The position numbers were made by a program, and so were the translations under genes. A stretch of DNA of 64,000 nt, from IMG/VR virus record IMGVR_UViG_3300042973_000021, positions 32,001 through 96,000 of that record; one strand, given 5' to 3'. Source of the DNA: a virus (Duplodnaviria; Caudoviricetes). Positions 6,428 through 22,859 of this stretch are shown one piece after another. The notes under the pieces were generated by a model. It searched no databases. It saw only the letters and a program-made list of their open reading frames with translations, and had not been told where the DNA came from. Within the stretch, counting starts at the first letter, position 1. Each line of letters opens with the position of its first letter.

Positions 6428-6466
6428 AAGAGTGGCTCCTGAATCATTCTGCAGGAGCCACTTCTT
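6428..6466. terminator. Probable bidirectional intrinsic terminator
   Basis: 11-bp stem AGTGGCTCCTG/CAGGAGCCACT between the convergent polymerase and abiA genes. Confidence 0.7.
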
Positions 6467-7680
6467 ATATTATCTTTTTTGCGCAGCCCATTGGCTATAG
6501 TGTTGAGCAGCATAAGCATCAATCAGACGATCTAAGTCTTCTTGCGATTTTTCCAAATCCTTACTGGAATTATTGCTGTCTATAAGATCCGCTGAAGAAT
6601 GACATAATGGATTCTGATTTCTAAACTGATGTGCATTTTTAATGGTGGAATCACAATTATAAATGCCATCATATAGCTTCTTAAACGCAGGCTCTTTGTA
6701 ATAGGCCTTGTAATTTGGCTTTTTACACGTCGGATCTACTCCAGATCGAAACGCCATATCCGCAGAAATCCTGTCGAAGAAATTCTTATAATACGCATAT
6801 GCCCCAAGGTAATTTGAACGGTTCTCTTCGCATATATGCATAAAGTAAAGAAACAACGCCTTTCTATCTTTTCCGATCGCATATAGATAACGATTCCACT
6901 TTAATGGTCGTAGCTGACTAAGAAAGCTTCTTTTACATGAGTATTCATAATATGAATATAAATCAGGGCTTTTCTCCCTAAGAATTTTTAGCAAATCTAT
7001 ATGCTGAAACTTACTCTGAATCAAATATGCAATGGCTATAGTTGTATCATATGAATTCCATATGCCCGCTCTATATCTTATAAACAGCTGATTTAGCATA
7101 GCTTTGATCGCACTATCACTTCCAGACTGCATCACCATTACAGACAACCTCTTGGGATCAATTGATAAAAAAGAAATATCCTGTTCAATGATTCTGAGTA
7201 ATTCTGTAGTAGTATCAGGCTTTTTCAGTTCCGTTTGGTTTTCATAAACGAAGTAATTATAAACTGACATCGCAGTAAGCTCGATATCATCTGAATGAAA
7301 ATGCTCTTCAATAAGATTGAGATATTGTTCATATGTGATTCCATGATTTTGAACGCATTTATATACATCTTTCAGAAATTCACATATTCTGTCATTAAAG
7401 AGTTCTCCAAGAGAATGTTCTATTCCATTAATGTATTCATCATACAAAGACCTTTTCAAGCTTTCATTTATTTCGCCACATCTTTTAAGAGCACATTTTC
7501 CCACATTCAGAGACAGCCCATGATCTTTTAATATTGATGAATATGCATTTTTTATCGTGTTATATGTGCGTTTAAGATCTTCAAAATCTGTATCTGTTGA
7601 AAAAAGAATATACAGATCATCAACATAACGTATCATGTGGAAATCTTTAAAATTTCCCACATTTGTCTTTATAAAAGAAT

Positions 7681-8897
7681 GGTAGATTGTAAAATGAACT
7701 TGAACAGCTGAATAGAGTAAAATCCATAGTGGATTTCTGGTAGAATAAAGTCGCGAAACAAAAATTCACCGAAAGGAGTCCACTATGGATCAACTTAATT
7801 CTACCATGATTACACCCGATCGCGAAAGGGGTCAGCACCTGAGATTTGAAGAAAGATGCAGTATCAGGATCTTCAAAAAGCTTGGTTACTCTCTCCGCAA
7901 GATTGCTCAGCAGATCGACTGCTCTCCATCCACTGTGATGTACGAACTTCGGCGTGGTACAGGCGAACGCAGGGGCAGCAGAGGAAGATTTCCACAATAC
8001 TCCGCCAGACGTGGCCAGCAGAACTATGAGATCAATCGATCCCGTTGTCACAAGGCACACAAGATTGCGGGTGCCCAGCCCTTCCTGGAATGGATGTATG
8101 GAAAGATCAAACATCACAAGTGGTCTCTTGATGCCTGTGTGGGTTATGCCAAACGGGAGCAGCTGTTTCCAGCAGAACAGATTCCATGCACAAAAACTTT
8201 GTACAATGAGCTCTGGGCAGGAAATCTCGAGATTCACCCTGCAGATGTTCCGGAAGCACTGTCCAGAAAGTCCCACAAAAATCACAGAGTCCGCCAGAAC
8301 AAGCATATCCTGGGCAAAAGCATCGAAGAACGCCCTGAGGAAGTGATGGAACGGATTCACTGTGGTCACTGGGAGATTGATACGGTAGTAGGCCATAAAA
8401 GCGGCAAAGAATCGGTTGTCCTTACTCTGCTTGAGAAGAAGACTGATTACTATATGGCCATCAAAATCCCGGGAAAGGACGCTGACTCTGTCATGACGGC
8501 TCTGGAAGTGTTGCGTGAAGAATACCAGGAGCACTTCACGGAGATCTTCCAATCCATTACAGCCGACAATGGCAATGAGTTTGCCAGACTTTGTGAGATG
8601 GAAAAATATGGTATATATGTATATTTTGCCCATCCATATTCGTCCTGGGAAAGGCCACAGAATGAACGGCACAATCGCATTCTTCGCAGATTTATTCCCA
8701 AGGGTGCCTCGATAGAGCGATACAGTGCGGAACAAATCTGCAGCTTTGCAGATGAGATCAACGCATTGCCCCGAAAGGCGCTAGGCTACTGCACTCCAGA
8801 GGAGCTATTCGAGAAGTTTCTCGATCAGGTATATTCAGTTGACAAGGTTCAATCAGCTTCGTAACTGCTACTGTTCAATTTGAACTTGCAATTTACG
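7681..8897 (+). mobile_element. IS30-family insertion sequence
   Basis: Imperfect ~27-bp terminal inverted repeats; 13-bp target duplication TTTATAAAAGAAT at 7668-7680 and 8898-8910. Confidence 0.9.
7785..8864 (+). CDS. IS30-family DDE transposase
   Basis: N-terminal HTH, GHWEIDTV, TADNGNEF, HPYSSWERPQNE, PRKALGY. Confidence 0.95.
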   Translation: MDQLNSTMITPDRERGQHLRFEERCSIRIFKKLGYSLRKIAQQIDCSPSTVMYELRRGTGERRGSRGRFPQYSARRGQQNYEINRSRCHKAHKIAGAQPFLEWMYGKIKHHKWSLDACVGYAKREQLFPAEQIPCTKTLYNELWAGNLEIHPADVPEALSRKSHKNHRVRQNKHILGKSIEERPEEVMERIHCGHWEIDTVVGHKSGKESVVLTLLEKKTDYYMAIKIPGKDADSVMTALEVLREEYQEHFTEIFQSITADNGNEFARLCEMEKYGIYVYFAHPYSSWERPQNERHNRILRRFIPKGASIERYSAEQICSFADEINALPRKALGYCTPEELFEKFLDQVYSVDKVQSAS

Positions 8898-9595
8898 TTT
8901 ATAAAAGAATGGAGCTCTGTATCGATTTTATCAAGGTAAATAACTGTAGCAAGATATGAAGATGCCATACTATTTTCTATAAGTGGGTAATCTCCATTTC
9001 CACAAAAAAGCAAAAGCTCTTTCATAAGAAGAATTTCACTCTGAGAAATTTCTTGTGTTGAACTATTACATACTTCATCAATTCTGGCCATCAGTTCATT
9101 TACATTGATGTTCCCGTAAAAATTTGTAATATCTGTCTTTATAAAATACTGACATTCCTGAGCATATGCATTGATTGCTTTATAAAAATTATCATAATCA
9201 TGCCCATATTTTGCGCGTGATTGGTTATAGTTCCCTGCGTAAAAAACTTCTATGTCATTTGGGCGTTCTGGAATATATTTACATGAAATTTCTTTTCCTA
9301 TTGATTGAAGCACCAAAAATAATAACGGAGAAATCAAAGCAGAATTCCGGAAGCTGCCGTCACCCTTTTGGATAAAATTTTCAGAATGGCGCATAACTTC
9401 AGGGAATAAAACAAAACCTCCAGAATCTATATACTTATCAAAGAATTCTCTGCTTTTTATCAGTTCCTTATCGTCGTCTGATATTTTTGTGTAAGGAAAC
9501 CACTGCAGATATGCTTTTAAAGAACCCTGCGAAATTGAAAAATACATTTCGCATATCTCTTTCCATACGTCATATGAAATACCAAACATCTAATC

Positions 9596-11725
9596 TTATT
9601 CCACTCCCAGCGCCTTGAACACTGCGTCTTCCGCGCTCTGATAAAAGATAATCTGAAAGTTTCCCATCAGTTCCGGTGGCACGGCTCCCATGTCTGCTGC
9701 CGAAGTTATCGGAAGCAGAATCTTCTTTGCTCCGCTGTCAAGGCATACCTGCAGCGCGTTTGCCAGCTCATCCACCTTGATCATAGAACCGGCGATACTG
9801 ATCTCTCCCAGCACGGCAAGAGAACTCTGTGTCGGACGATTCAGCGCAATCGAGCAAATAGAAATAACCGTCGGCAGAGCCAGCTTGTCTGTAATTCCAA
9901 TGCCCTGCAGATCCTGATAATTGATGTTGTAATCCTTCGACGTCATGCTGATGGAGCCGCTGATCCGCTTTGCATTTGCCTTCAGGAAATTGAACGCCGT
10001 ATTCGTCGCTTCCTTCGCGCCGCGATCACTTCCAAGGCCCGTGCATACGAGCTTCCCAGTTCCCGGCAGCATCTGCGATTCCAAGCGGAATACACCGAGC
10101 ATCCCACTCTTACCACGAGAAACCGTGTAAACCTGTCCCGGATTGCAGATACCCTCCGGGATCAGCTTTCCGCCGCCCTGCTCCGGCACGGAGACATATT
10201 TCTCTTCAAAGGTCTCATTGTCGATATAGCTGAAATTCACATCGTAGAATTCCATGCCGCCGAGCTTCTTGAGCTGCTCTTTGACACGGCGGCGCATTTC
10301 GAGAGAAATCTTCAGGACTTCCTCTACGTCGTCCTTCGTGAATTCGCCGTTCGGATACATAAGCTTCAGGTATCCGTCCACCATCCTGCGGACCGCAATG
10401 ACGTCACGCTGGTTCAGATTCTTTCCAAGATGGAAATAATGATCCAGCGCATCTCCGAGCTGCTCTTTCCGCATCTCGCGAATCCATCCGGCCAGATAAT
10501 CGGTAATAAAACCATAGTCATCTGTAAAATGCTCCGGTCGGAACTTCGGTACCTCCCATCCTGGCAGATAGCAGTGAATACGGTCAAGGAACGCTGTATC
10601 GGTTCCCATTTCCGGCGGGAACGGATCAAAGAGGCTGGATGTCTTCAGGAGCACATCGACACTCTGATTGATATTGCCAACGAAAACCATCGACGCAGAA
10701 GCAGCCTTTTCTTCCTTTCCACGGGCAAAAGAACCAGATGCCATGTAATCCTTCATGATCTGAATTCCGTCGTTATCTTTGAATTTGATCCCGGCGACCT
10801 CATCAAACGCCACACAGTCCCACAGCCCGACAAGCCCGATAGTCTTTCTTCCCATATTGTAGAAAAGATTCGCGACCGTCGTCTGGCCTCCGGAAACAAG
10901 AATACTGTTCGGCGATACCTCTTTATAGAGATACGACTTTCCGGTCGAACGTGGTCCGAGCTCACAGAGATTGAAGTTATTCTCGATCAGCGGAATCATC
11001 CGGGTGAGAAGCAGCCATTTCTCTCTGTATGTCAATTCATCCGGTTCCATTCCGATCGAGCGCATCAGAATATCGAGCCATTCATCCTTCGTGAAGTCTT
11101 TTCGTCCTTCTTTCAGGCCATCCATATCCACGCTTGGCAACTGGATCGGCGTAAGCTTGCGGATGCTGATCGGCGTCAGGTCCTTCTGCTTTTTCCGCTT
11201 CGACTGAATGCGATCGCCGGAAGGCGAGATAATATCCGGCACCGCGTCTTCGCCGGAATCATATTCCAGCTGAACAATACACCAGATTCCGCCGCAGAGC
11301 AGGCGATCATACTTCTCCGGGTACTCTTCACTGATTGGAATCCCGGCAAGGCCGAGATTGGAGAAGCTTGCCTCATACTCGTCATAACGAAGATTGAGAT
11401 TCACCGTCACCATATCGATAATGGTGTGGCTTCCTCTCTGACGGAGCTTCGACAGAACCTTCTGCGCTTCATCTGGACGGACAAAGTTATCCGCCAGAAT
11501 CCGCTTCACATTTTCAATACCCTGTTCGATGACTTCCTCGTCATCAGAGCTGCAGTACTGGCCGAGAAGAAATTCCAGGACATAAACCGGCACATTTGCG
11601 CCTTCCTTGATCTTCTTGGTCAGGTCCTTCCGCACGATCTTTCCGTCAAAGTTCTGACGGAGCTTTTCTTTTATGATTTCACGGGTGCTCTTTTCCCCGG
11701 TAGAAATATCATCCATTCGTATCAC
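9596..11725 (-). CDS. brxL: BREX Lon-related AAA+ protein BrxL
   Basis: ANVPVYVLEFLLG, ELGPRSTGKS Walker A, VAFDEVAG Walker B, C-terminal Lon-like domain. Confidence 0.93.
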   Translation of the reverse strand: MIRMDDISTGEKSTREIIKEKLRQNFDGKIVRKDLTKKIKEGANVPVYVLEFLLGQYCSSDDEEVIEQGIENVKRILADNFVRPDEAQKVLSKLRQRGSHTIIDMVTVNLNLRYDEYEASFSNLGLAGIPISEEYPEKYDRLLCGGIWCIVQLEYDSGEDAVPDIISPSGDRIQSKRKKQKDLTPISIRKLTPIQLPSVDMDGLKEGRKDFTKDEWLDILMRSIGMEPDELTYREKWLLLTRMIPLIENNFNLCELGPRSTGKSYLYKEVSPNSILVSGGQTTVANLFYNMGRKTIGLVGLWDCVAFDEVAGIKFKDNDGIQIMKDYMASGSFARGKEEKAASASMVFVGNINQSVDVLLKTSSLFDPFPPEMGTDTAFLDRIHCYLPGWEVPKFRPEHFTDDYGFITDYLAGWIREMRKEQLGDALDHYFHLGKNLNQRDVIAVRRMVDGYLKLMYPNGEFTKDDVEEVLKISLEMRRRVKEQLKKLGGMEFYDVNFSYIDNETFEEKYVSVPEQGGGKLIPEGICNPGQVYTVSRGKSGMLGVFRLESQMLPGTGKLVCTGLGSDRGAKEATNTAFNFLKANAKRISGSISMTSKDYNINYQDLQGIGITDKLALPTVISICSIALNRPTQSSLAVLGEISIAGSMIKVDELANALQVCLDSGAKKILLPITSAADMGAVPPELMGNFQIIFYQSAEDAVFKALGVE

Positions 11726-11730
11726 ATCCT

Positions 11731-14340
11731 TTAGCTGAAGAAATCGAAGTCATCCACAGCAAAAGCAATGTCTATGGAGAATTCTTCGCGCTGTGGCAGC
11801 TGCAGACCGCTTTCGTCCGCAATCACCAGATAATAGCTTTCTTTATTGCTGTATTTCATTGATTTCAGGTTGAAGCTCACGCGGAACGTTCTGTCCTGAT
11901 TGTTGCTGCTCGTTTTATCCGCAATTACTCGCTGCGTATCGCTAACCTGTTTTCCTTCTGAATCTACAAAGTACAGAAGATAATTAGTAGCCTCACGGTT
12001 ATCGCCGACTGCTTCCTTCTGATAGAAATTCAGAGAGAAGATCATATTGCTGATCTTGCGGCTTGCCGAGAGAAGGCTCAGCGTCACGGGTTTTGTATCA
12101 TACTTTTTCTTATTCTTCTGATATCCGGCGCTGTCCGTACGCATGTAATGGTAATCGATCACCGGCACGACCATCTCCTGCAGGCTGATACCTCCATGCA
12201 CGAAGTTCAGGCCACCGCCTTTCTTTTTGATCCGGGTGTTTCCTATCGGTGCAAAAGCGTCATACTGCGTGCCATCCAGAAATTTTACCGGAAGCAGATA
12301 CTCCGGCTTCGCACCTTTTTTCGTAATAAGATAACGGCGATCCACTTCCACATCATCAGCTGAAGATGTCGTCTTATCCACCTTTGCATCCTCCGTCAAC
12401 GGCTTATAGGTGTAGATAAAGCCGTGGTCAGAAGTGATGTATATCCTCGTTCCGCTGAACTCATTGACAATGATACGCACCATGTTCTTGAGCTCGGAAA
12501 TCGCATCACTGCAAGAGTCAAAAACAAGTGCTTCATCGGTATGGCTGGTCTCATCAATCTTGTCATGGTAGATATATACGACATCCATGCCCTTTACCAG
12601 AGCGCTGCGCTCAGCACGCTTCATCTTGATGATATCCTTGTACTTCAGCGCCACGCTTGCCGGATTCGCTTTCTTCAGGATTCCGTCCCGGTACTGCGCA
12701 TCTGTCGGCTGGCCGTCCGCCAGAACGCCCACGACGCCATTCGATTTCAACTCCGCCGTCAGTTCCTTATGCGGCAGAAGCGCCGTCATGCCGAACTTCG
12801 TCACAGTTGGGAAAATGCCCTCGCAGGATGACAGCTTAACCTCTGCCTGCGTTTCCCGGCGCAGCTCTTCAGATAGTGTTGCCGCTACTTCATAGCGCAT
12901 GGCATCGGAAATAATCACAAACACGCGAGTATCGGCATTCTGCACGTGGGTGCGATAGAAATCCCGCTGCTGCGGCACCTCCATAATCCTGCCGTATTCC
13001 TTCAGGTTGTCCGATGCGGCAGTTGCCCAGTTGGTGCCAAGATTATCCAGATACCAGTTTGCGTACAGTCCTTCCACATTGTCCGCCACATGCTTAAACA
13101 GGTCGTCGAGCAGCGGATTGGATGAATTCAGAGATTTCCCGAACGCCACATGGAAAAGCCTGTAGCAGGTATCCATCTTATAGTAATCAGTAGTGTATTC
13201 CTTCCAGACCTTATGCGGCTCCACGGTATGAAATCCGGCGGCATGGTCCAGATAGAACTTCTGCATGTGCGCGACCTCCAGAACTCCCTCATAAAAGTTC
13301 TGCACTCGCTCATACCAAAGCATCGTCCGGCGCTGCTCCGCGGTCTGTTCGATGACATCCACATTAATCGTATGATCGATGATGTCCGTCATCAGTTTTT
13401 TCAGAATGCACTCATCGATGCACGGAAAGATTTCTGTCTGGGTAAGCTCTTCAATCGGCAGCTGACTGAATCTTGCCGGAAGGCGTAGTTCATCTTCGGT
13501 CTGTCTTGCAATGCTATAAAGCTCCCGCGTCTCATCCGAATGCATCCACTCCGACATGAAATCGTAGCAATAGCTCTGATGCGGGATAGAAATAAACCCA
13601 TCCAGACCGATCAGATTATCCATGCGCATAGTACGTGTTGCCGCCGTCATCAGGATATGGCAGGAGAGCCTGCCGAGATCAGGCGTTTCCTCACGATAAC
13701 CGGTGACCTGAGCCACCATCTGCCAGAAAACAGAGTATGCTCCATATTTTACGAGAGACTGGTATATGCTGTTCTGCTCCTGATCAGTTCCGGCACGGAG
13801 CACCGTCCGGATCAGAAGATTCGGCTCGGTATCCTTCACACCACAGAGAATCGCGATCACAGCCTTATGCAGATGCACAGGTGCAGTGATCTTCTGATTG
13901 AGATTTGCCACCTTCGTGCGGTGAGCCTTCGTCTTGAAGAACGGACGATAATCCTTCACAGTCTTCCGCAGGTTCGCCGTATTCTCAATCCCCATCTCTT
14001 CGAGCCAGATGGAAACAAGATCCGCGCGGAATTCCTCACTGTAAAGCTGCACGGGCAGGAGCCAGTTTTTTTCATCCGGATAGGTGACCGGGCAATAGAC
14101 ACAGAAGTTACTCGTCCTGTCATCATGCGTCAGAAGCTTCTTTACTTCAAAATTATTCGTCTCATCCAGAGCGATGAGCTTTGCATCCGCCAGTTTGATT
14201 TCTCCGTTCTGAACCTTCTCCTCGAAATCCCTGTCCTCGTCGTACCAGAAGATGATCCGGCGCTGATAGAACTCCGGAAGCGAAGCAGCAAACCGGCGGT
14301 TTAATTCCTGTATTACTTTATCTGAATCAGGCAGAGCCAT
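11731..14340 (-). CDS. pglZ: BREX-1 PglZ phosphatase-domain protein
   Basis: RIIFWYD N-terminus, IISDAMRYE, TSDHG, FVHGGISLQE. Confidence 0.93.
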   Translation of the reverse strand: MALPDSDKVIQELNRRFAASLPEFYQRRIIFWYDEDRDFEEKVQNGEIKLADAKLIALDETNNFEVKKLLTHDDRTSNFCVYCPVTYPDEKNWLLPVQLYSEEFRADLVSIWLEEMGIENTANLRKTVKDYRPFFKTKAHRTKVANLNQKITAPVHLHKAVIAILCGVKDTEPNLLIRTVLRAGTDQEQNSIYQSLVKYGAYSVFWQMVAQVTGYREETPDLGRLSCHILMTAATRTMRMDNLIGLDGFISIPHQSYCYDFMSEWMHSDETRELYSIARQTEDELRLPARFSQLPIEELTQTEIFPCIDECILKKLMTDIIDHTINVDVIEQTAEQRRTMLWYERVQNFYEGVLEVAHMQKFYLDHAAGFHTVEPHKVWKEYTTDYYKMDTCYRLFHVAFGKSLNSSNPLLDDLFKHVADNVEGLYANWYLDNLGTNWATAASDNLKEYGRIMEVPQQRDFYRTHVQNADTRVFVIISDAMRYEVAATLSEELRRETQAEVKLSSCEGIFPTVTKFGMTALLPHKELTAELKSNGVVGVLADGQPTDAQYRDGILKKANPASVALKYKDIIKMKRAERSALVKGMDVVYIYHDKIDETSHTDEALVFDSCSDAISELKNMVRIIVNEFSGTRIYITSDHGFIYTYKPLTEDAKVDKTTSSADDVEVDRRYLITKKGAKPEYLLPVKFLDGTQYDAFAPIGNTRIKKKGGGLNFVHGGISLQEMVVPVIDYHYMRTDSAGYQKNKKKYDTKPVTLSLLSASRKISNMIFSLNFYQKEAVGDNREATNYLLYFVDSEGKQVSDTQRVIADKTSSNNQDRTFRVSFNLKSMKYSNKESYYLVIADESGLQLPQREEFSIDIAFAVDDFDFFS

Positions 14341-14354
14341 AAGCTTCGCCTCCT

Positions 14355-17300
14355 TTACTTTATCTTCGCCAGAACATCCTGGAATATTGCGTAGTTGTGC
14401 TTCACGCCGTCATCCAAATCAATCGATATCATTTGATCCGCAAGATGGTGGATCTTTTCCTCATACAAACGTGTCTCTTCCGCCTGATCACGGAGCTTTG
14501 TGAGCTGCTTGTTCAGACGAACACGCTCCGATGTCGACGCACCATTGATCTGGCATTCAAGACCAGAAATTGCTGTGCGATACCTTGCCTGCTGCTCATG
14601 CACATAGTCCGTCCGAATGCGGGCAATCGTGTCCGGCTGGTAGCGGTGCATATAGATAAGGCACTTAAAGCCGTTCTTTTTGCCGGAGTCGAAAAGCCAG
14701 TAAATCGGGCGCTTCTGGTAGATCTTGCAATGATCCTTGTAAAAATCCTTTATGAAATAATTTCGGATGACTTCACGTGATGTAGCGCCTTTTTCACCCA
14801 GCGCATCTGCGATAAACTTCAGATTCTCCTCCAGTGTACCCTCGCCGTATACTGTGCGGACAAATTCCACAAATCTGCCTACAATGTCGTCTGTAAAATA
14901 CTCATCATCCGTAATGGGAATAATAGCGTCTTTGTCCGGAATGAAAGTTTTGTACTTCGAGCCGTCCCAATTTCCGCCAGCATAGGCGAGACCGTCTACA
15001 TCAAGAGAATACCTACCAAACATACAGCCAACTGCATAGGAAACAAACGAGCGTATATCCCGACCAAGGTCAGCCTTGCGGACGGTCACGTCCTTGTCAT
15101 CTTCCTCCGGCGTCAGCTCATCCTGCAAGCCGTAGATGTCGATAAAGATACGGTTCAGCTCTTCCTCATTAGCTTTCAGCTGATTGAAGCGGTCGTCGCA
15201 TTCCTGCTGCCACTGGGTGAAGGCTTCTTTGATGGTATGCGTGTTGCGAATCAGCGGATGCTTTTGAAAATCCCATGAGGTTTCAAAGGAGTCCCAGTCA
15301 TTTTTTGACAGCAAAACACATTCTTGTGCTCGAGATATAATTCCTGCCTGTTGATTTTCCTGAACTATAAGTACCGGAAAATTTTTAAAATCTCCTACCT
15401 GCAAATTGATCGTTGGATTCAACATCTTAAAAACGTAATTTGCCACAGGTGTTGATAAAATAGCCAACAGATACATCAAATTACATTTTCCTGTATAAAA
15501 CGCCGACATACCAGAAACATCATGTATACCACCTGTAGTCCTATACCGTATGCTGAAGCCACCGGATGTTATCAAACCCCAAGTAATTGCGTCTTTAAAA
15601 TACGAATCTGTATTTTGTGGCCGAGATCTAAGTTTTCCATGATTATCTACGAAATGTTTTATTTCAAATCCATCATTCTCCCAATTAACAAGATAGTCAT
15701 AATTTCCATACCAGTTTCGTCTTTCTCCTCCTTTGTTATAAGGAACCCACTTTTTCCCACTCTTAAGGAGTTCATCAGCATTTGCTGAATCATATTTACA
15801 TTTTTGCGGATCAACTTCATACCAAAATCTTAAAAACCTATTATTATCCCCAGTAGCCAGCCCCTGCTTAACAGATACCAACTTCTCTGTTGATAGCCCT
15901 TTCTCAAAGTCCGCCAGCATATTTGAACTCACCCAATACGCCACCGGGCTGCCGGGGATTTTGGAGAAGTTGGACTGGGAGGATTCGTAGAAGAAGCCAC
16001 AATCCGGATTTGATAATGCTTCCTTTACCTTCCTGCGCTGGACTTCCATGCCACCTGTGAAATCGGACAGGCGGAAATATTCGCCCTTACTTTCTGCTTT
16101 GCCATTTTTCAAAACAAATGAGCAAATCGGCACAGTAGCTTCTTCAAATGCGGAGTACTCGAACTGAATCAATGTAGTGATGGCTTTGTTATTAAGAATG
16201 TAATTCCGCAGCGGTTCGTATGTCTTGATAAACATCCAGACCATAGGCGTCATGAATCCGGAATATCCATTCTCCTCGCAGAATCCAAAATTTCTGTAAA
16301 CGAACACACTGAACAGGTCGCCTTTGTAATCGGCATAGTTGTCAGCGATATACTTCTTCAGCTTTGCGTCAAACTTATTGAGGTACGGCGGATTTGTTGC
16401 CACGACTGCATATTTGTCGGACAGAATCTTTGCCTCACGCACAAGCGGAAGAAGTGTACCCAATGCTGTATCTCTGTAGAGATCAACATCATTCTCGATT
16501 TCCGCAAACCGTGCAAAAAGTGCGTCAAAGTCCACAGGCTTTATCTGAATGATAGAGCCATATTCCTTGGCATCCCGTGTGTCATCTATGATTGACTGTA
16601 TATCTTTCTTGAGCTTGTCGCTGCCATTGGCAAAGTAATCAATGGTAAAGGAATCTACATGATTGCTTTCCTTTATCTCATAGAAATGTGGCTGGATGCC
16701 GCGTTTCAGGAAACGTCTGTCATACTGCATTGCCTTCATCATGATAGCAAAACTGGCGAGCTGCGCCGCACGTTCGTCAATGTCAAGTCCAAACAGATTA
16801 TTCTGTACAATAGAAGCCGCTGCTTCCCGTTCTGTATAACCGTATTCGGTATAGATTTTCTCAAGCACATCAAAGGTATAAACCCCAAAGTGAGCACTGC
16901 CCATACAAGGATCGAATACGGTGAGCTGTTCTGGAGTTATCTTTTCATTCACAATCGAAATATTGCCATCCTTCGGCGCGACAAAATACTCCAATACATT
17001 TTTCAGATTGCTGTTTGAATTCCGTTCAATCCAGTATCTTCCGACAGAATTATCAATGATATAGCGAACTACCCAATCAGGTGTAAATAGCTCCGTCGCA
17101 GCTGGAATATCTTCTTTCTCTACAGTTTTCTTTCCAATAGCATTTACTACCTTTTCATGTTTTTCCGACATGTAATACTGGTAAAGCCATCCAATAATTT
17201 CAATTTGCCCGCCCTCTTCTACATTCCAGTCTTTCTCCGGAATATCAGTAATCATTCGTTCCACAACGCTTCCTTCCCGGAGCAGATTGTCCGGGAAGAG

Positions 17301-17807
17301 CAACTCGGTGTAGTCTGCGATCTTCTGGAACATTCCCGGCAGCACACTGGAGAGTGCATTGCACTGCGTGATGATAAGGTACTTGAACAGTGCGTCGTCA
17401 TCATTAGCATCCTTCAGGGCATAGACTTTCTCCATGTCGAGACCGTCCAGATCCAGATGAATTGCCTCGGCCAGGATCTCCGGCTTGAACTTCCCGTTTT
17501 CATCCGTAAACACACGAATTCGGGACGGAAGGTAATTATTGACCTCCATAAACCGCAGAGCCGCAAAACGGTTGAACCAGGTATAGGCGACTTCCTCCAT
17601 CACCTGATCCTGTCCCTTTTCCTTTACCTGCCCGATCAGCGCCGCACGCTGCTTCTTCTCATCCGCTGTCAGAAGAACGCCATGCGCAGAGTCCGCATTT
17701 GGATCTGCATCCGCGCTGATTTCATATTGATCTGCCTTCTGCGACACGCGCTCAATGAGTTCGTTTCTTGCCCAGACGGCGTATTTCTTTATTGCATTCT
17801 TATCCAT
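14355..17807 (-). CDS. pglX: BREX-1 adenine-specific DNA methyltransferase PglX (BrxX)
   Basis: EEVAYTWFNR, FTPDWVV, DPCMGSAH, NPPY, KRPIYW, IDLDDGVK.NY. Confidence 0.95.
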   Translation of the reverse strand: MDKNAIKKYAVWARNELIERVSQKADQYEISADADPNADSAHGVLLTADEKKQRAALIGQVKEKGQDQVMEEVAYTWFNRFAALRFMEVNNYLPSRIRVFTDENGKFKPEILAEAIHLDLDGLDMEKVYALKDANDDDALFKYLIITQCNALSSVLPGMFQKIADYTELLFPDNLLREGSVVERMITDIPEKDWNVEEGGQIEIIGWLYQYYMSEKHEKVVNAIGKKTVEKEDIPAATELFTPDWVVRYIIDNSVGRYWIERNSNSNLKNVLEYFVAPKDGNISIVNEKITPEQLTVFDPCMGSAHFGVYTFDVLEKIYTEYGYTEREAAASIVQNNLFGLDIDERAAQLASFAIMMKAMQYDRRFLKRGIQPHFYEIKESNHVDSFTIDYFANGSDKLKKDIQSIIDDTRDAKEYGSIIQIKPVDFDALFARFAEIENDVDLYRDTALGTLLPLVREAKILSDKYAVVATNPPYLNKFDAKLKKYIADNYADYKGDLFSVFVYRNFGFCEENGYSGFMTPMVWMFIKTYEPLRNYILNNKAITTLIQFEYSAFEEATVPICSFVLKNGKAESKGEYFRLSDFTGGMEVQRRKVKEALSNPDCGFFYESSQSNFSKIPGSPVAYWVSSNMLADFEKGLSTEKLVSVKQGLATGDNNRFLRFWYEVDPQKCKYDSANADELLKSGKKWVPYNKGGERRNWYGNYDYLVNWENDGFEIKHFVDNHGKLRSRPQNTDSYFKDAITWGLITSGGFSIRYRTTGGIHDVSGMSAFYTGKCNLMYLLAILSTPVANYVFKMLNPTINLQVGDFKNFPVLIVQENQQAGIISRAQECVLLSKNDWDSFETSWDFQKHPLIRNTHTIKEAFTQWQQECDDRFNQLKANEEELNRIFIDIYGLQDELTPEEDDKDVTVRKADLGRDIRSFVSYAVGCMFGRYSLDVDGLAYAGGNWDGSKYKTFIPDKDAIIPITDDEYFTDDIVGRFVEFVRTVYGEGTLEENLKFIADALGEKGATSREVIRNYFIKDFYKDHCKIYQKRPIYWLFDSGKKNGFKCLIYMHRYQPDTIARIRTDYVHEQQARYRTAISGLECQINGASTSERVRLNKQLTKLRDQAEETRLYEEKIHHLADQMISIDLDDGVKHNYAIFQDVLAKIK

Positions 17808-17871
17808 GAAAGAGTCCTCTCTTAGTTCTACTCTGTATAACTTCTGCCAGCCAAATCAAAGATTTGGGGCA

Positions 17872-20800
17872 TCAGTTAAGTTTAATTCCGTCGCAGTCCT
17901 TCAGAAGCGCATTCAGGTAGGAGCGCATCCGCTCCACATAGTCATTTACATCGTCTTCACTTTCCAGCGTTGCCTGCTTGAAAATCGCCTGACGATAGCA
18001 GTTCTTGATATGCTTCTTCGGCTGATCCGGCTGCACAGGCTTTACCGGTTTCTTCGGCTTCTTTGCGGATTCAATCGCCGCAACGGTGTCGTCCTTGTAG
18101 TTCCACATCTGTGTGGTCATGCCGTCGAGCAGGACAATAGTTCTGGTGGTGGCGATCTGACTCTTCATCTGCGTGAAGTAGTTGTCCGCCTTCTCTATGA
18201 CATTTCTGAATTCGCCGCCTTCGCCTGCCGCCTGATGAATCTCAGCGAGGCACTGGCGCACAATCTCCAGAAGATCTGCACGCTTTTCCTCGAGCAGCTT
18301 ATTATGCCCGGCACGGACTTTATCCATCAGTCCATTGAGCTCCGGAATCTGTCTGTAGACAGCCGGATTGCTGCCGTTTACCAGTGTGATCTTCCGGATC
18401 TGGTTCAGCGCTTCATTGGTTTCCTCATCCTTCTGAATATACGGCAGGTCGTTCCGGAGATCGGCTTCCATCTTCACTGCAGAATCAAACACCGTAACCT
18501 GGTTCTTAAAGAACGCTTCGACCGGCTGCATGTCGTCCTTGCTGTCAAACAGCTTCGTTTCGTCTGCTACCAGACGGTCAATCAGCGCGATGTCGTCCTT
18601 CTCCTGCGAGAGCACGTCGTCCATCAGCTTGATGGCTGCTGTTACCTTGTCGTGATCCGGGTATTTGTGGCCCGCATACCGGCTGTTCAGTTCCTCGTAA
18701 TGCTGCTTCTGATCTTTGAACTTGTCCAGAATCAGCTTAACGAGAGCATCCTGATCATCTGGCACGTCCATGATGTCGAAGTACTCCCGCATGATCTCTT
18801 TTGCGGCTTTCATTTTCTGCGCGGAGGCAGACTGCTTCATGGAAATCATGGCCTTGCCGCGCTCTGTCTTTTTGCGGAGCATATCCGGAAGCTTCGGATT
18901 GTCCGGGCGAATCTGTGCGCCGCCGTATTTAATCGTAACCTTCTGCTGATAAATCAGAAGTGCCACAACCGCGGCGATGTCGATTTCCTTCCAGCCGTAC
19001 GGAATCTTCTGATAGCGCGTCTGGATGTCGTCCATCGAGGTCGGAAGCTTCTTCATGGACTGCATTTCGAGGTACTCCTCGACCTTGGCAGCAGCATCAC
19101 GGTTGTTCTCCATACCGGCCATTTCCGGATTGGTTCCGCGCAGAATCTCGATGATATCTGCATCCGTTTCCGCATTCTTTGTAATCAGGTCGAGCTCGCT
19201 GTAGACGTGCGCCACAAGATATTCGAGAGCTTGATCAATCTTGGAAACCGGCGTTCCGCTCTTGATTTCGATATGCTCGCCGTCTACATAGAACTCCGCA
19301 CCGGCGATGGCTTTCTCAAGTTCTTCCTTGGCGGAGGTTTCATACTTTCCGGCCTCGTCCTGCTGGTCGCGAATGATGTCCTGCACGGATTTCGCCAGCT
19401 GATTCACATTGCGCTGCTTCACATACTTGCGAATCTTCATGGCGTTTTCCAGAGACTCGTAGTATGGCGTATCTGCGAGCACGACAATGGCGGCTCCCTT
19501 GGATTCCGTCATCAGACGCAGTTCCTGCTTGTCCGTCACGTCCGTAGCTACTGTTAGGAAGCGGAGCGTCATGCCACCAGTCACCGCACCGATGGAAGTG
19601 GAATCCACCATCTCATCAAACGGGAAGTCGTATTTCCCATACCGGTATTTCTTCTGTGTATAGATATCGCCGAAGATCATCTGCCCGATACGCTCAACGA
19701 TCTTGGCGGTATCTACAGATGTATTCGCGATGTCTCGCGCAATATCCTGCTCCTCATCGGTGAGGAAGATATAGGCATCGCCGCGGCGGTCAATATAGTT
19801 CTGGCTCTTCAGGCGGTCGAGCGACTTCTGCACCGTCTGCCGGAGCTCGATCTTATCCGTCCGGATATCATCCGACATCAGAATGACGATGTTATCAAGG
19901 TTTGCCTTTACATCATCGATGTAGCGAATGAGGTAGAGGAGCTTTAATACCTTGACGTCATAGTCTTCAATGCCGTCATGATTATCCGCGGCCTTCTGGC
20001 AGCGCTCGATCACGCGGCGGATAGAGCCGTCGAGGAAGGAGTGCACGCTGTCATAGAAAGGATAGAGCGGAGCAATCGCATGCTCGTCCTTATCCTCGAT
20101 GGATTTTGCTACGATCTGGAAGCCGTCCAGCATCGACCGCTCTGCACCGGAGTAGTGCTTTCCGGCAGCGCCATGCTTGCGGATTTCCGAGAAAATCTTC
20201 TGAATCAGGATGAACTGATACGGCACAAACGGATAGTTCACAACGAACTCCTCCGGGCCGCTGTATCCCTTAATATCGAGCACAGAATCGGTGAAGCTGA
20301 ACAGGTTCTTCAGCACGTAGTCGTTGCGCTCATACAGGTCAGTAAGAACGGTCTTGGCTTCCGACTTCTTGGTGAGGAGTCTCTTCTGGATGACCTCATC
20401 CACGGCAGAGGAGGACAGGGAAAGTCTCGTCTTAAACCGCGCCTGAATGCGGGAGAACTCATCCATGCGAACCTTGATGATCTCGTCGATGGCTTCCTGT
20501 CCGGTGCAGACGATCCACACCTTGCCGCCGCATTCGCTTCCAACCTTCTCAACAAGGGACTGAAGGTTCAGGAGCAGGTTTGTATCCGTGCCAACATACT
20601 GGCCAACCTCGTCCACCATAAAGAGAAGCCTGAAGTTCTTCGGCTTGCTGTTCACATAGTCCTTAATCTCAGATACGAGCTGTGCAATGCTGATCTCCGC
20701 GGTCTCCGTTCCATTGAACCAGTTACGGGCAGCGGTCTCGCTCATGCCGAGCACTTCCTCGAGTGTCTCGACCACATCATCCTCGAAGAAGCCGAAGGAT

Positions 20801-21387
20801 TCTCTTGTCTCCACCCACGGAGCGCCGTTCTTTTCTTCAAACACACGGCGGAATTCTTCTGTCTTTCCCTGTTTTGCGACGAACTGCTCCAGCTTTGCCA
20901 CCTTCAGGTCCTCCCCGAGAAAGCCGAGATGGTTATAGAACATCTTCGCAAAAACCTTCAGCACAGCGGTATTGTCCTTATTGCTGAAGCCTTCAATATC
21001 GATATTGAAAAGGATTGTCTCCGTCGGTGCCTTCGTCGCCTTGTCGATCAGCATGAAGGTGGCCGGATCATCCGCAAATTTCTTGCGGAACCGCTCGACC
21101 GTAGACATGCCGTTGATGGTCCTGTTTTCCAGAATATAGGAGAGCATCTTCAAGAAGTGAGATTTACCACTTCCAAAGAAGCCGGAAATCCAGACGCCGA
21201 TATCCGCTGTCGGCGTATCAAAAGCGTCGTCGTAATAATTGAAGAAGGTAATGAAATGCCGCTTCAATTCGCGCGTAATGACATACTCGTTTAATTCCTG
21301 CTCGGTTGTCGTGTCTTCCTGGTCTACTTTGATGACACCATTTATTTTTCGGTTGATGTCATCGACAAACATGTCCTGAATTCTCAT
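17872..21387 (-). CDS. brxC: BREX P-loop ATPase BrxC
   Basis: GVWISGFFGSGKSH Walker A, MVDEVGQY Walker B, YPFVPYQ; 1171 aa. Confidence 0.95.
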   Translation of the reverse strand: MRIQDMFVDDINRKINGVIKVDQEDTTTEQELNEYVITRELKRHFITFFNYYDDAFDTPTADIGVWISGFFGSGKSHFLKMLSYILENRTINGMSTVERFRKKFADDPATFMLIDKATKAPTETILFNIDIEGFSNKDNTAVLKVFAKMFYNHLGFLGEDLKVAKLEQFVAKQGKTEEFRRVFEEKNGAPWVETRESFGFFEDDVVETLEEVLGMSETAARNWFNGTETAEISIAQLVSEIKDYVNSKPKNFRLLFMVDEVGQYVGTDTNLLLNLQSLVEKVGSECGGKVWIVCTGQEAIDEIIKVRMDEFSRIQARFKTRLSLSSSAVDEVIQKRLLTKKSEAKTVLTDLYERNDYVLKNLFSFTDSVLDIKGYSGPEEFVVNYPFVPYQFILIQKIFSEIRKHGAAGKHYSGAERSMLDGFQIVAKSIEDKDEHAIAPLYPFYDSVHSFLDGSIRRVIERCQKAADNHDGIEDYDVKVLKLLYLIRYIDDVKANLDNIVILMSDDIRTDKIELRQTVQKSLDRLKSQNYIDRRGDAYIFLTDEEQDIARDIANTSVDTAKIVERIGQMIFGDIYTQKKYRYGKYDFPFDEMVDSTSIGAVTGGMTLRFLTVATDVTDKQELRLMTESKGAAIVVLADTPYYESLENAMKIRKYVKQRNVNQLAKSVQDIIRDQQDEAGKYETSAKEELEKAIAGAEFYVDGEHIEIKSGTPVSKIDQALEYLVAHVYSELDLITKNAETDADIIEILRGTNPEMAGMENNRDAAAKVEEYLEMQSMKKLPTSMDDIQTRYQKIPYGWKEIDIAAVVALLIYQQKVTIKYGGAQIRPDNPKLPDMLRKKTERGKAMISMKQSASAQKMKAAKEIMREYFDIMDVPDDQDALVKLILDKFKDQKQHYEELNSRYAGHKYPDHDKVTAAIKLMDDVLSQEKDDIALIDRLVADETKLFDSKDDMQPVEAFFKNQVTVFDSAVKMEADLRNDLPYIQKDEETNEALNQIRKITLVNGSNPAVYRQIPELNGLMDKVRAGHNKLLEEKRADLLEIVRQCLAEIHQAAGEGGEFRNVIEKADNYFTQMKSQIATTRTIVLLDGMTTQMWNYKDDTVAAIESAKKPKKPVKPVQPDQPKKHIKNCYRQAIFKQATLESEDDVNDYVERMRSYLNALLKDCDGIKLN

Positions 21388-21400
21388 TTGGCGGCTCCTC

Positions 21401-21961
21401 CTATATCACATTGAACGCCCTGTAATAAGGGTTCGGTTTTAATCGGTCAAACAGCTTCACATGCCTTCCGTCGAATGTTCCCGGATACATTACGAGAATC
21501 GGAACACCGCCGACTCTCGGCTGCAGGGCTTCCAGAAGCATATGGATACGCATGAATGGGAACACATCACCCACACCTGTCAGAAGCAGAACATCTCCCT
21601 TTTCCGGCGGCGTGCTGCAGATCTTATCTACATAGGCCTGCACATTGATGGATTTTTCGATCATCTTCTGCAGCTGATCCTTCCCGCGCTTTTTCTCCTG
21701 ATCTGCCATGCGGGAAAGAATCCTCTTGTCCTCACAGCACTGCAGGAAGATCTCATATAAATTATTTTCTTTCAGACGGCACGGCAGTGTCTGGTCTGTT
21801 AGAATCTGCCGCACGAAGTGACGGACACGCATTTCATCCCTCGCTTCATAGCAGAACATCCTGATATTTACTTCGTTGGACAAGCCGTTTCCTTCCAGAA
21901 AATCCGGGTCCTTCAGGAGATCACGCACCCTGTCCAGACGTTCATCTATATTTCCTTCCAT
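21401..21961 (-). CDS. brxB: BrxB (DUF1788)
   Basis: GLSNEV, LTGVGDVFPFMR.H, YPG.FDG, NPYYRAF. Confidence 0.9.
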   Translation of the reverse strand: MEGNIDERLDRVRDLLKDPDFLEGNGLSNEVNIRMFCYEARDEMRVRHFVRQILTDQTLPCRLKENNLYEIFLQCCEDKRILSRMADQEKKRGKDQLQKMIEKSINVQAYVDKICSTPPEKGDVLLLTGVGDVFPFMRIHMLLEALQPRVGGVPILVMYPGTFDGRHVKLFDRLKPNPYYRAFNVI

Positions 21962-21969
21962 GTTTCCTC

Positions 21970-22599
21970 CTACGACAGGCAGTTGAAGGCTGGCAGAGCC
22001 TCCGTCGTCCCGTCGTTCCTGATCGCGTTTTCAAGTACCGGGCTAATCAGCACCGGATTCAGATGATCCGCCTTCGTGCTGTCCAGATATTCATTCTCTA
22101 CGAGTGTTTTCGTCAGCACCTGCCGAACCTTCGTAATAGTGGAATCACTCCACGTGGCCACCCAGTCGTCCTGCTCCTGCAGCCGCATGAAGAATGTGTT
22201 CAGATCCACCCTGCCGAACGAGCTGTCGAGTTTCTGATATTTCTCTCCGATGACCGTCAGCATAAAGTCCCATACCAGACGGTACTGCCGCATCATGGCA
22301 TACAGACAGATCTGCTTTGCCACATCACTCGGCTGCGTCGCAATGGCCGTAACAAGCGAATCGTCCTCCATTGCTTCAAGCCTCCGGATGCAGGCAAGCG
22401 CCATCTTACGGACGGACTTTTCCGTCGGATACTGAAACAGATTCTCCGACACGATGTGTTCAACCACAGCATCCTTATCAAGCCCGTCGTTTACGAGCTT
22501 TGCCGTAGTACGCATTTCATAAAACAAAAACTGTTCCCGCGTAATCGCGGCATTATAAGGACTGGCTTCTTTGAGTGCCTTGTTTGTACTTTGCGGCAT
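21970..22599 (-). CDS. brxA: BrxA (DUF1819)
   Basis: Y.A.IT.E.F...E, ENLFQ, WSDSTI.K; canonical position upstream of brxB. Start codon approximate. Confidence 0.88.
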   Translation of the reverse strand: MPQSTNKALKEASPYNAAITREQFLFYEMRTTAKLVNDGLDKDAVVEHIVSENLFQYPTEKSVRKMALACIRRLEAMEDDSLVTAIATQPSDVAKQICLYAMMRQYRLVWDFMLTVIGEKYQKLDSSFGRVDLNTFFMRLQEQDDWVATWSDSTITKVRQVLTKTLVENEYLDSTKADHLNPVLISPVLENAIRNDGTTEALPAFNCLS

Positions 22600-22843
22600 T
22601 CTTCTTTTCCTCCGGTTTATTGGCGGCTCCCTTTTCATCATCATCCGGAACCGTTTCTACAATTTCATTAATATTGCAGTTCAATGCTTCGCAGATCTTC
22701 AAAAGCACATCGGTCGTCAGGTTTTCGCCTTTGCCGAGCTTCGCAAGGGAAGCTGTGCTGATCCCACTTAATTCCCGCAAATCCTTCTTTGACATTTCCC
22801 GTTTTGCAAGTATTACCCATAAGGGTCTGTAACTGATACGCAT
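22553..22843 (-). CDS. XRE/Cro-C1 family HTH regulator
   Basis: ISYRPLW..L..R.MSKKDL....GIS..SLAKLGKGEN.TT.VL.KIC.AL.C pattern; GGAGGT RBS. Confidence 0.85.
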   Translation of the reverse strand: MRISYRPLWVILAKREMSKKDLRELSGISTASLAKLGKGENLTTDVLLKICEALNCNINEIVETVPDDDEKGAANKPEEKKNAAKYKQGTQRSQSL

Positions 22844-22859
22844 ACGCACCTCCATCAGT

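What the first reader, a model, noticed from the sequence alone, without database searches (positions are those of the whole stretch)
6470..22843. Type 1 BREX with an AbiA reverse transcriptase-HEPN as its seventh gene
Seen: the RT gene starts 6 nt after the brxL stop on the same strand, with no promoter or terminator between them, and the only terminator I found is at 6428-6466. The reconstructed 629-aa protein has TDITNFY, YVDD and a C-terminal RNxNPLxH HEPN-like motif, and is visibly more AT-rich than the BREX genes. Known: AbiA is an RT-HEPN abortive infection protein, and BREX loci can carry backup effectors such as BrxU. Inference: this is a BREX-RT/HEPN composite in which the toxic RT-HEPN acts as a second line or guard, firing when BREX is inhibited (Ocr-like or SAM-lyase counter-defence), much as PrrC guards a type I RM system. 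I do not know this coupling as a described BREX subtype.
Basis: partly seen in the sequence, partly recalled or inferred. Interest (0 to 1): 0.85.

Follow-up and report, generated by a model that had tools for sequence, protein, structure and literature searches.

The report
BREX island with IS-broken AbiA cargo gene
A complete type 1 BREX phage-defence operon on a prophage is followed 6 bases later by an AbiA reverse-transcriptase defence gene that a transposable element has split; comparison with relatives shows AbiA is one of many interchangeable defence genes parked behind brxL, not a new BREX subtype.

Summary
brxA, brxB, brxC, pglX, pglZ and brxL are complete on the minus strand. An AbiA (RT-helical-HEPN) gene starts 6 nt after the brxL stop, is AT-rich, and ends at a strong hairpin terminator.

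The gene is dead in this window. A 1218-bp IS30-family element (7680-8897, 12-bp target duplication) splits it at codon 230. The intact 629-aa allele exists in three metagenome contigs of the same element.

The guard reading is not supported:
- Among about 178 AbiA loci (135 distinct proteins), only this clade sits directly after brxL.
- BREX proximity arose about three separate times, each in a different geometry.
- None of 61 nearest BrxL loci with room for abiA carries it.
- 47 of 67 carry some other same-strand gene within 100 nt of brxL (GmrSD, Mrr, GajA, TIR, SIR2, AbiH, HEPN, QatA, CD-NTase, Schlafen).
- A sister prophage has a GHKL-ATPase gene in exactly this slot.
- The 85%-identical sister abiA keeps only a pglZ/brxL relic upstream, yet dN/dS across that pair is 0.09.
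- Published work shows AbiA defends as a single gene.

Verdict: an ordinary defence-island cargo gene, probably co-transcribed with BREX and recently inactivated. Backup effectors beside BREX were already described in 2026. The scan noted this before only on this same stretch.

The parts
22553..22945 (-). Cro/C1-type HTH gene just upstream of brxA; its ORF overlaps the listed brxA ORF. Candidate regulator.
   Evidence: Pfam HTH_26 1.6e-19
21970..22644 (-). brxA
   Evidence: PADLOC BrxA 1.1e-67, Pfam BrxA 5e-65
21401..21961 (-). brxB
   Evidence: PADLOC BrxB 2e-68
17872..21387 (-). brxC (ATPase)
   Evidence: PADLOC BrxC E=0, model 1-1189 covered
14355..17807 (-). pglX (N6-adenine methyltransferase and specificity factor)
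   Evidence: PADLOC PglX E=0; Pfam Eco57I and N6_Mtase
11731..14340 (-). pglZ
   Evidence: PADLOC PglZ 4.7e-271
9596..11725 (-). brxL (Lon-like/MCM-type ATPase)
   Evidence: PADLOC BrxL E=0; Pfam BrxL_N, BrxL_ATPase, Lon_C
8898..9589 (-). abiA 5' fragment (codons 1 to about 230, RT fingers/palm with TDITNFY). The listed ORF 8849-9589 runs on into IS sequence.
   Evidence: PADLOC AbiA PDLC02341 2e-99, model 1-230; ATG lies 6 nt after the brxL stop
7680..8897 (+). IS30-family insertion sequence (1218 bp). Transposase ORF 7785-8864 (+), inverted repeats 7682-7707 / 8871-8896.
   Evidence: Pfam HTH_38 plus rve; IRs; a second copy 99.9% identical over 1221 nt at record 113359-114579 with its own 13-bp duplication
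7668..7679 (.). 12-bp target-site duplication TTCTTTTATAAA (minus-strand reading); the other copy is at 8898-8909
   Evidence: Flank comparison with the intact site in L008
6470..7679 (-). abiA 3' fragment: RYVDD palm, priming Tyr, helical domain, and HEPN_AbiA_CTD with RNQNPLCH
   Evidence: PADLOC AbiA 1e-123, model 230-602; Pfam HEPN_AbiA_CTD 3e-47; aligned to PDB 8OZ7
6428..6466 (.). Hairpin terminator between the convergent abiA and phage polA genes
   Evidence: -23.1 kcal/mol, z -3.84, U-rich tail
22860..25939 (-). Context: two-gene ABC-3C/Lamassu-like candidate defence pair upstream on the same strand. The products are a DUF2326 ATPase (593 aa) and a CTD11 protein (387 aa).
   Evidence: Pfam DUF2326 and CTD11; weak PADLOC LmuA/LmuB and PDC-M68A/B

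Best explanation
This is a complete type 1 BREX operon carried as cargo in a prophage array. It is followed by a stand-alone single-gene defence system, AbiA. AbiA is a protein-primed, template-independent DNA polymerase with helical and HEPN domains. It occupies a variable 'seventh-gene' slot bounded by the brxL stop codon and the terminator shared with phage polA.

In the intact allele, abiA is most likely co-transcribed with BREX (inferred from the 6-nt gap, an RBS inside the brxL 3' end, and no terminator). It would then act as an independent extra layer of immunity. It senses phage infection by itself and does not need BREX.

In this window an IS30-family element has recently split abiA, so only BREX can be functional, possibly together with the upstream ABC-3C-like pair.

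The juxtaposition arose by defence-island accretion and cassette exchange, not as a co-evolved composite.
For: 1. **Family membership.** abiA shows full-length AbiA matches, and the polymerase, priming-Tyr and HEPN residues are conserved.
2. **Clean IS insertion.** It has a target duplication and a near-identical second copy. The intact allele P0001 occurs in the same brxL-abiA-polA context in 3 contigs.
3. **The slot is variable.**
   - 47 of 67 nearest BrxL loci have a same-strand ORF of at least 180 aa within 100 nt of the brxL stop.
   - The 50 downstream ORFs that were clustered fall into 29 sequence clusters.
   - The annotated ones include GmrSD, Mrr-like, GajA, PDC-M22A, SpbK-TIR, DinG, QatA, HEPN, AbiH, TIR, SIR2, caspase, CD-NTase and Schlafen.
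   - None of the 61 loci with at least 2 kb downstream has abiA.
4. **Sister prophage L185** (BrxL 98%, PolA 90%). Homology breaks exactly at the brxL stop and at the polA end. A 349-aa GHKL-ATPase gene replaces abiA.
5. **AbiA is mostly elsewhere.**
   - 79 genome loci and 3 viral loci have no BREX gene within 10 kb.
   - 3 of the 80 metagenome loci have BREX nearby, and none of the 7 loci fetched for P0003, P0005 and P0015 do.
   - Those three differ in layout: brxL-abiH-abiA in two contigs, and abiA upstream of brxA in one.
   - A tree of 135 AbiA proteins needs 3 independent gains.
   - Near-identical AbiA modules (97% nt) occur with and without BREX.
6. **Each part survives without the other.** The P0002 lineage keeps an intact abiA behind a decayed pglZ fragment. 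That fragment is fused to the last codons of brxL (about 10). dN/dS between P0001 and P0002 is 0.09 at dS 0.9. The window keeps BREX with abiA destroyed.
7. **Published experiments.** L. lactis AbiA protects E. coli as a single gene (PMC11077055).
Against: - The brxL-abiA junction is tight, and it was conserved long enough to be ancestral to two lineages with dS about 0.9. It also persists across mosaic BREX variants. Some selective advantage of co-expression is therefore possible.
- Many occupants of the slot are abortive-type effectors. This is what a 'backup effector' model predicts (PMC12839542).
- No transcript or phenotype data exist for this element.
- Contexts of most of the 637 database homologues were not examined.
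Confidence: 0.8

Rival explanations
1. Guard or backup coupling. AbiA is functionally wired to BREX and fires when BREX is inhibited or overwhelmed, in the way PrrC guards EcoprrI.
For: - 6-nt spacing with no promoter-like or terminator-like site between the genes.
- The junction is ancestral to the P0001/P0002 clade.
- Published comparative work proposes backup HEPN, Schlafen and OLD effectors in BREX operons (PMC12839542).
- AbiH-AbiA also follows brxL in L268.
Against: - No conserved architecture: there are 3 independent associations, each with a different geometry.
- abiA persists intact after BREX loss.
- BREX persists after abiA loss (this window).
- The slot is swapped in sister prophage L185.
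- AbiA is autonomous in a heterologous host. HEPN R/H mutants still defend, and no cell death was detected (PMC11077055).
Confidence: 0.1
2. Selected inactivation. abiA was knocked out because it conflicts with the carrier prophage's own replication module (Gp2.5-like SSB/annealase, exonuclease, PolA next door). The IS insertion would then be adaptive rather than neutral decay.
For: - abiA lies beside the phage replication genes.
- The IS is active, with two near-identical copies in the record.
Against: - The intact allele coexists with the same polA neighbour in three independent samples.
- Other IS and transposase insertions litter the neighbouring prophage, which suggests general decay.
- There is no direct evidence of a conflict.
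Confidence: 0.08
3. Assembly artefact. The IS, or the brxL-abiA junction, is a chimeric join in a metagenome-derived record.
For: The record is an IMG/VR provirus, probably from a metagenome or draft assembly.
Against: - The junction is reproduced in three independent assemblies and, as a relic, in six more.
- The IS has inverted repeats and a clean 12-bp duplication. Its second copy has its own 13-bp duplication.
Confidence: 0.02

Closest known systems
Type 1 BREX (Goldfarb et al. 2015 definition; brxA-brxB-brxC-pglX-pglZ-brxL)
   Same: All six genes are present in canonical order and full length.
   Different: It is carried inside a tandem prophage array. It is preceded by an HTH gene and an ABC-3C/Lamassu-like pair, and followed by a seventh gene.
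Lactococcus lactis AbiA (PDB 8OZ7; Gapinska et al. 2024, PMC11077055)
   Same: Same three-domain architecture. Aligns over residues 4-614 at E 1.6e-65. RYVDD, the priming Tyr (Y306 here, Y298 in L. lactis) and the R-x6-H HEPN motif are conserved.
   Different: The sequence is distant: AbiA homologues from Lactobacillales genomes are about 28-33% identical to this clade. In this clade the gene sits directly behind brxL instead of standing alone. In this window it is split by an IS.
BREX plus BrxU (GmrSD) defence island of plasmid pEFER (Picton et al. 2021, PMC8565348)
   Same: An additional single-gene defence system lies in the same island as a type 1 BREX operon. GmrSD-like genes occupy the same post-brxL slot in 8 of the related loci examined here.
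   Different: The occupant here is an Abi-type reverse transcriptase, not a type IV restriction enzyme. No complementarity has been demonstrated.
'Auxiliary and backup effectors' of BREX loci (NAR 2026, PMC12839542)
   Same: That survey reports HEPN, Schlafen, TOPRIM/OLD and PD-(D/E)XK effectors encoded within or next to BREX operons. It interprets them as a second line against anti-defence.
   Different: Its main text has no occurrence of 'reverse transcriptase'. The held supplementary files gave only spurious hits for AbiA and RVT. AbiA's HEPN is reported to be structural rather than catalytic.
PrrC / EcoprrI guard system
   Same: A HEPN-type protein is encoded next to a methylation-based restriction system.
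   Different: Here the co-occurrence is not conserved and each partner survives without the other.

Membership tests
Type 1 BREX | Six core genes brxA, brxB, brxC, pglX, pglZ, brxL in one same-strand cluster | tested here: met
   PADLOC and Pfam hits with full model coverage for all six
Type 1 BREX | Non-palindromic site methylation and phage exclusion | not testable with these tools
   Needs methylome and phage assays
AbiA (UG/Abi RT, large AbiA) | RT-like palm with RYVDD catalytic motif | tested here: met
   RYVDD at residues 244-248 of the 629-aa product, invariant in 28 homologues
AbiA (UG/Abi RT, large AbiA) | C-terminal HEPN_AbiA_CTD with R-x6-H | tested here: met
   Pfam PF18732 at 3e-47 (160 bits against a cut-off of 27); R580 and H587 invariant
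AbiA (UG/Abi RT, large AbiA) | Priming tyrosine equivalent to L. lactis Y298 | tested here: met
   Y306 aligns with chain residue 400 of 8OZ7 (Y298 plus the tag offset) and is invariant (PMC11077055)
AbiA (UG/Abi RT, large AbiA) | Uninterrupted reading frame | tested here: not met
   Split at codon 230 by the IS at 7680-8897 in the window; intact in P0001 contigs L008-L010
AbiA (UG/Abi RT, large AbiA) | Template-independent, protein-primed DNA synthesis and anti-phage activity | not testable with these tools
   Biochemistry and phage assays required
BREX-dedicated guard or composite subtype | Conserved co-occurrence and fixed gene order with BREX across homologues | tested here: not met
   - 0 of 79 genome AbiA loci, 0 of 3 viral loci and 3 of 80 metagenome loci lie near BREX.
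- Those three have other geometries.
- None of the 61 BrxL loci with at least 2 kb downstream carries AbiA.
BREX-dedicated guard or composite subtype | Activity depends on BREX status | not testable with these tools
   Indirect evidence points against it: abiA is conserved after BREX decay
IS30 family insertion sequence | Single DDE transposase with N-terminal HTH and rve core | tested here: inconclusive
   HTH_38 scores 47 bits, above its cut-off. rve has E 8e-7 but scores 29.7 bits, below Pfam's 32.6-bit cut-off.
IS30 family insertion sequence | Terminal inverted repeats and a target-site duplication | tested here: met
   26-nt inverted repeats, 77% complementary. Duplications of 12 and 13 bp at the two copies. 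As I recall, IS30 itself makes only 2-3 bp duplications.

The most novel reading that the evidence does not exclude
The position immediately after brxL could be a dedicated docking site rather than a passive island edge. Interchangeable second-line effectors (AbiA, AbiH, HEPN, TIR, SIR2, GajA, GmrSD and others) would be placed there under BREX transcriptional and translational control. Their dosage or activation would then be tied to BREX, so AbiA would work as a BREX-linked backup. The exact-boundary cassette swap between sister prophages would reflect a specific exchange mechanism.
Probability: 0.08. Interest if true: 0.7.

Novelty: new member of a known kind. Interest (0 to 1): 0.25.

Why it matters
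It shows that a striking gene juxtaposition (BREX plus an RT-HEPN Abi gene 6 nt apart) need not be a new composite system.

The useful result is the picture of the post-brxL position as a busy, sharply bounded cargo slot in Bacillota-type BREX loci. About 70% of loci carry a tightly abutting seventh gene, and the sampled ORFs fall into 29 sequence clusters.

There are also natural 'reciprocal knock-outs': BREX without abiA here, and abiA with only a BREX relic in the sister lineage. These argue that the two systems work independently.

The locus also offers natural intact and IS-broken alleles on the same prophage background for testing layered defence.

Tried and rejected
- **Class-level genome search.** Searching the PADLOC AbiA model in 399 genomes of the class of a related BREX host gave no hit at E<=1e-30. 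AbiA is too rare for that sampling, so I switched to pattern-based locus retrieval.
- **First genome search.** It failed because a locus id cannot serve as the centre. I corrected this through handles.
- **brxL relics elsewhere.** I looked for brxL 3'-end relics upstream of all other AbiA loci. None were found outside the P0002 clade, apart from the real brxL genes in L268 and L269.
- **Closer pglZ allele for the L011 relic.** None was found; the best match was about 67% nt, so the relic is old.
- **Literature.** A search for AbiA together with BREX gave no paper describing the pairing. The supplements of the 2026 BREX survey gave only spurious hits for AbiA and RVT. A search for prophage-encoded BREX was inconclusive.
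- **PglZ in deposited phage genomes.** It matched only 8 records: short unannotated fragments, draft contigs and one 501-kb bacterial contig. None looked like a complete phage genome.
- **Not run.** Structure prediction and complex prediction were skipped. Family membership was already clear from sequence, and I do not claim that AbiA binds a BREX protein.
Full report
**What is at the coordinates**

The minus strand from 22945 down to 6470 carries these genes, in order:
- a Cro/C1-type HTH gene
- brxA, brxB, brxC, pglX, pglZ and brxL
- an AbiA gene

Every BREX protein matches its PADLOC and Pfam models over the full length.

- The brxL stop is at 9596-9598 and the next ATG at 9587-9589, leaving 6 nt between them.
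- A crude consensus scan finds no promoter-like or terminator-like site on that strand near the junction.
- After the abiA stop, a hairpin folds at -23.1 kcal/mol (z -3.8) and has a U-rich tail. It sits between abiA and the convergent phage polA gene.
- GC falls to about 0.35 over abiA, against about 0.50 over BREX.
- The motifs TDITNFY, RYVDD and RNQNPLCH are all present.

**The gene is broken**

The AbiA reading frame is in two pieces. The 5' piece (ORF 8849-9589) matches AbiA model positions 1-230, and the 3' piece (6470-7660) matches positions 230-602.

Between them lies a 1218-bp element (7680-8897) with these features:
- a transposase on the plus strand carrying HTH_38 and rve domains
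- 26-nt imperfect terminal inverted repeats
- a 12-bp target duplication, TTCTTTTATAAA
- a near-identical second copy (99.9% over 1221 nt) elsewhere in the 162-kb record, which has its own 13-bp duplication

Removing the element and one copy of the duplication restores an in-frame 629-aa product. This is a natural protein, P0001, 99% identical over the C-terminal fragment used as query. It is found intact in three metagenome contigs with the same pglZ-brxL-abiA-polA context. The insertion is therefore recent and polymorphic. In this window abiA is a pseudogene while BREX is intact.

**Family membership of the RT**

The intact allele aligns with the crystallised Lactococcus lactis AbiA (8OZ7) over residues 4-614 at E 1.6e-65. 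In an alignment of 28 homologues the following are invariant:
- RYVDD (residues 244-248)
- Y306, which aligns with the priming Tyr298 of the Lactococcus enzyme
- R580 and H587 of the HEPN R-x6-H motif

It is a bona fide large AbiA.

**Does AbiA recur behind brxL?**

I looked from both sides.

*From the BREX side:*
- None of the 80 nearest BrxL loci in species-representative genomes (76-93% identity) has AbiA on either side within the fetched flanks, which reach up to 6 kb.
- 61 of them have at least 2 kb downstream, enough room for a whole abiA.

*From the AbiA side:*
- 79 genome loci (28-66% identity, flanks up to 10 kb; 53 of the 83 loci scanned, a few of them duplicates, have at least 2.5 kb upstream) have no BREX gene.
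- 3 IMG/VR loci have none.
- The contexts of P0003, P0005 and P0015 (67-68% identity) are other islands: DUF4238/BrnT, SIR2, and a type I/IIG-like methylase with IS elements. They have 0.4-1.2 kb of upstream intergenic DNA.
- Three of 80 metagenome loci do have BREX nearby, but in other geometries:
  - L268 and L269 read brxL, then abiH 9 nt later, a small ORF, abiA, and then housekeeping genes.
  - L274 has abiA 0.6 kb upstream of brxA of a divergent BREX.
- On a tree of 135 distinct AbiA proteins the BREX-adjacent state needs three independent origins.
- The AbiA module of L268 is 97% identical at the DNA level to copies in L098 and L270. Those copies have no BREX, and homology starts only about 55-90 nt upstream of the ATG.

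AbiA therefore behaves as a mobile single-gene module of about 2 kb that sometimes lands at the edge of a BREX island.

**A relic in the sister lineage**

The closest independent AbiA is P0002 (85% identical overall, 92% in the N-terminal part and 82% in the C-terminal part). It has no BREX operon.

In all six contigs, however, the roughly 290 nt upstream of its ATG hold a decayed PglZ fragment. This fragment covers residues 583-651 and contains an in-frame stop. It is joined at an 'ED' microhomology to the last codons of brxL (about 10), followed by the stop and the same short spacer. The fragment is only about 67% identical to any pglZ sampled, so the deletion is old.

The brxL-abiA junction is thus ancestral to the P0001/P0002 clade. 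BREX was later lost while abiA stayed intact: dN/dS between the two alleles is 0.09 at dS 0.9. Together with the window, where BREX is intact and abiA is broken, these are natural reciprocal knock-outs. Each system persists without the other.

**The slot behind brxL is a cargo bay**

- Among 67 related BrxL loci with at least 1 kb downstream, 47 have a same-strand ORF of at least 180 aa starting within 100 nt of the brxL stop. In 35 of them it starts within 30 nt.
- The 50 downstream ORFs that I clustered fall into 29 sequence clusters.
- Cluster representatives were annotated as follows, with the number of loci in each cluster:

| Occupant | Loci |
|---|---|
| GmrSD/BrxU-like | 8 |
| Mrr-like PDC-S02 | 5 |
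| GajA | 3 |
| PDC-M22A | 3 |
| SpbK-type TIR | 3 |
| DinG-like helicase | 2 |
| QatA | 2 |
| Cthe_2314-type HEPN (in L018, one of the two closest BrxL relatives at 92%) | 1 |
| AbiH, CAP12-type TIR, SIR2, caspase-like, CD-NTase, Schlafen, DUF6414, PDC-S54 | 1 each |

- A sister prophage is the most telling case. L185 has BrxL 98% and PolA 90% identical. DNA homology with the window stops exactly at the brxL stop on one side and at the polA end on the other. The 1.1 kb in between encodes a 349-aa GHKL-type ATPase, starting 14 nt after brxL, instead of abiA.

This prophage family alone therefore shows three states of the slot: intact abiA, IS-broken abiA, and a different gene.

**Context**

- The record is an IMG/VR provirus of 162 kb, made of three related prophages in tandem plus small repeats.
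- On one side, the defence block (ABC-3C/Lamassu-like pair, HTH, BREX, abiA; about 6470-25939) is flanked by the phage exonuclease (DUF2800), Gp2.5-like SSB and PolA genes. On the other side lie two serine recombinases and the lysin and tail genes of the next prophage.
- In 67 of 80 related phages polA is followed by a DUF7768 gene on the same strand. Here the exo-SSB-polA block is inverted relative to DUF7768, so polA converges on abiA.
- Between the window and L008, identity varies by segment:
  - brxL-abiA-polA: 99.6-100%
  - brxC and the pglX 5' part: 82-88%
  - pglZ: 84-93%

  So BREX itself is mosaic.

**Mechanism and published background**

- Gapinska et al. 2024 (PMC11077055) show that L. 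lactis AbiA is a dimeric, protein-primed, template-independent DNA polymerase.
- In that study AbiA protects E. coli as a single gene.
- The HEPN domain is needed structurally, but R581A and H588A substitutions do not affect defence.
- No induced cell death was seen.
- This undercuts the premise of a 'toxic RT-HEPN' held in check by BREX.
- A 2026 survey of BREX (PMC12839542) already reports that BREX loci widely carry auxiliary and backup effectors in the same operon. It names HEPN, Schlafen, TOPRIM/OLD and PD-(D/E)XK types, and proposes them as a second line against anti-defence.
- That survey does not mention AbiA or reverse transcriptases in the text held. No paper pairing AbiA with BREX turned up.

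**Conclusion**

- The most likely reading (about 0.8) is an autonomous AbiA module in a variable post-brxL cargo slot of a prophage-borne BREX island. In its intact form it is probably co-transcribed with BREX, and it is now inactivated.
- A dedicated guard coupling is not excluded (about 0.1).
- The finding adds AbiA to the known list of BREX-adjacent accessory defence genes. It is not a new kind of system.
- Earlier notes of this scan on the same stretch proposed the same guard and operon ideas. No occurrence on other DNA was found.

Noticed in passing
window 22860-25939 (-): A two-gene candidate defence pair lies upstream of HTH-brxA. It encodes a 593-aa DUF2326 ATPase (weak LmuB and PDC-M68B hits) and a 387-aa protein with an ABC-3C CTD11 domain (weak LmuA and PDC-M68A hits). 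This looks like an ABC-three-component/Lamassu-like system packed on the same strand as BREX.
   Followed up: partly
L011 9709-10000 (also L012-L016): A PglZ pseudogene fragment (aa 583-651, with an in-frame stop) is fused at an 'ED' microhomology to the last codons of brxL (about 10). It sits directly upstream of an intact abiA (P0002). This is a fossil of a deleted BREX operon.
   Followed up: yes
L185 11996-13093: A sister prophage (BrxL 98%, PolA 90%) carries a 349-aa GHKL (HATPase_c) protein gene in the brxL-polA slot instead of abiA. Homology breaks exactly at the brxL stop and the polA end. The protein has no PADLOC hit, so it may be an undescribed defence gene.
   Followed up: partly
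window 11644-19639 versus L008: BREX is mosaic between two otherwise near-identical elements. brxL-abiA-polA is 99.6-100% identical and the pglX 3' part 97-100%. brxC and the pglX 5' part are 82-88%, and pglZ 84-93%. This suggests recombination among BREX alleles.
   Followed up: partly
window 1310-6426: The phage exo (DUF2800), SSB (Gp2.5-like) and PolA block is inverted relative to the DUF7768 gene. In 67 of 80 related IMG/VR phages polA is followed by DUF7768 on the same strand.
   Followed up: partly
window 7680-8897 and record 113359-114579: An IS30-family element is present in two near-identical copies (99.9% over 1221 nt). Their target duplications are 12 and 13 bp, much longer than the 2-3 bp I recall as typical of IS30 itself.
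   Followed up: partly
whole record (G000, 162 kb): The record holds three related prophages in tandem (about 0.5-59 kb, 59-99 kb and 122-158 kb), plus a 1.2-kb tandem repeat at 118.7-121.2 kb. Two serine recombinase genes lie at window 27223-28092 and 28510-30102.
   Followed up: partly
window 39460-40722 and 43914-45143: Further transposase genes interrupt the tail and tape-measure region of the neighbouring prophage (phrog transposase hits). This suggests the prophages are decaying.
   Followed up: no
L268 1378-6869: This is an independent BREX tail. brxL is followed 9 nt later by an AbiH gene, then a small ORF and an AbiA gene (64% identical to the window's), and then the housekeeping genes ahpC and yaaA. 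The same AbiA module (97% nt) occurs without BREX in L098 and L270.
   Followed up: yes
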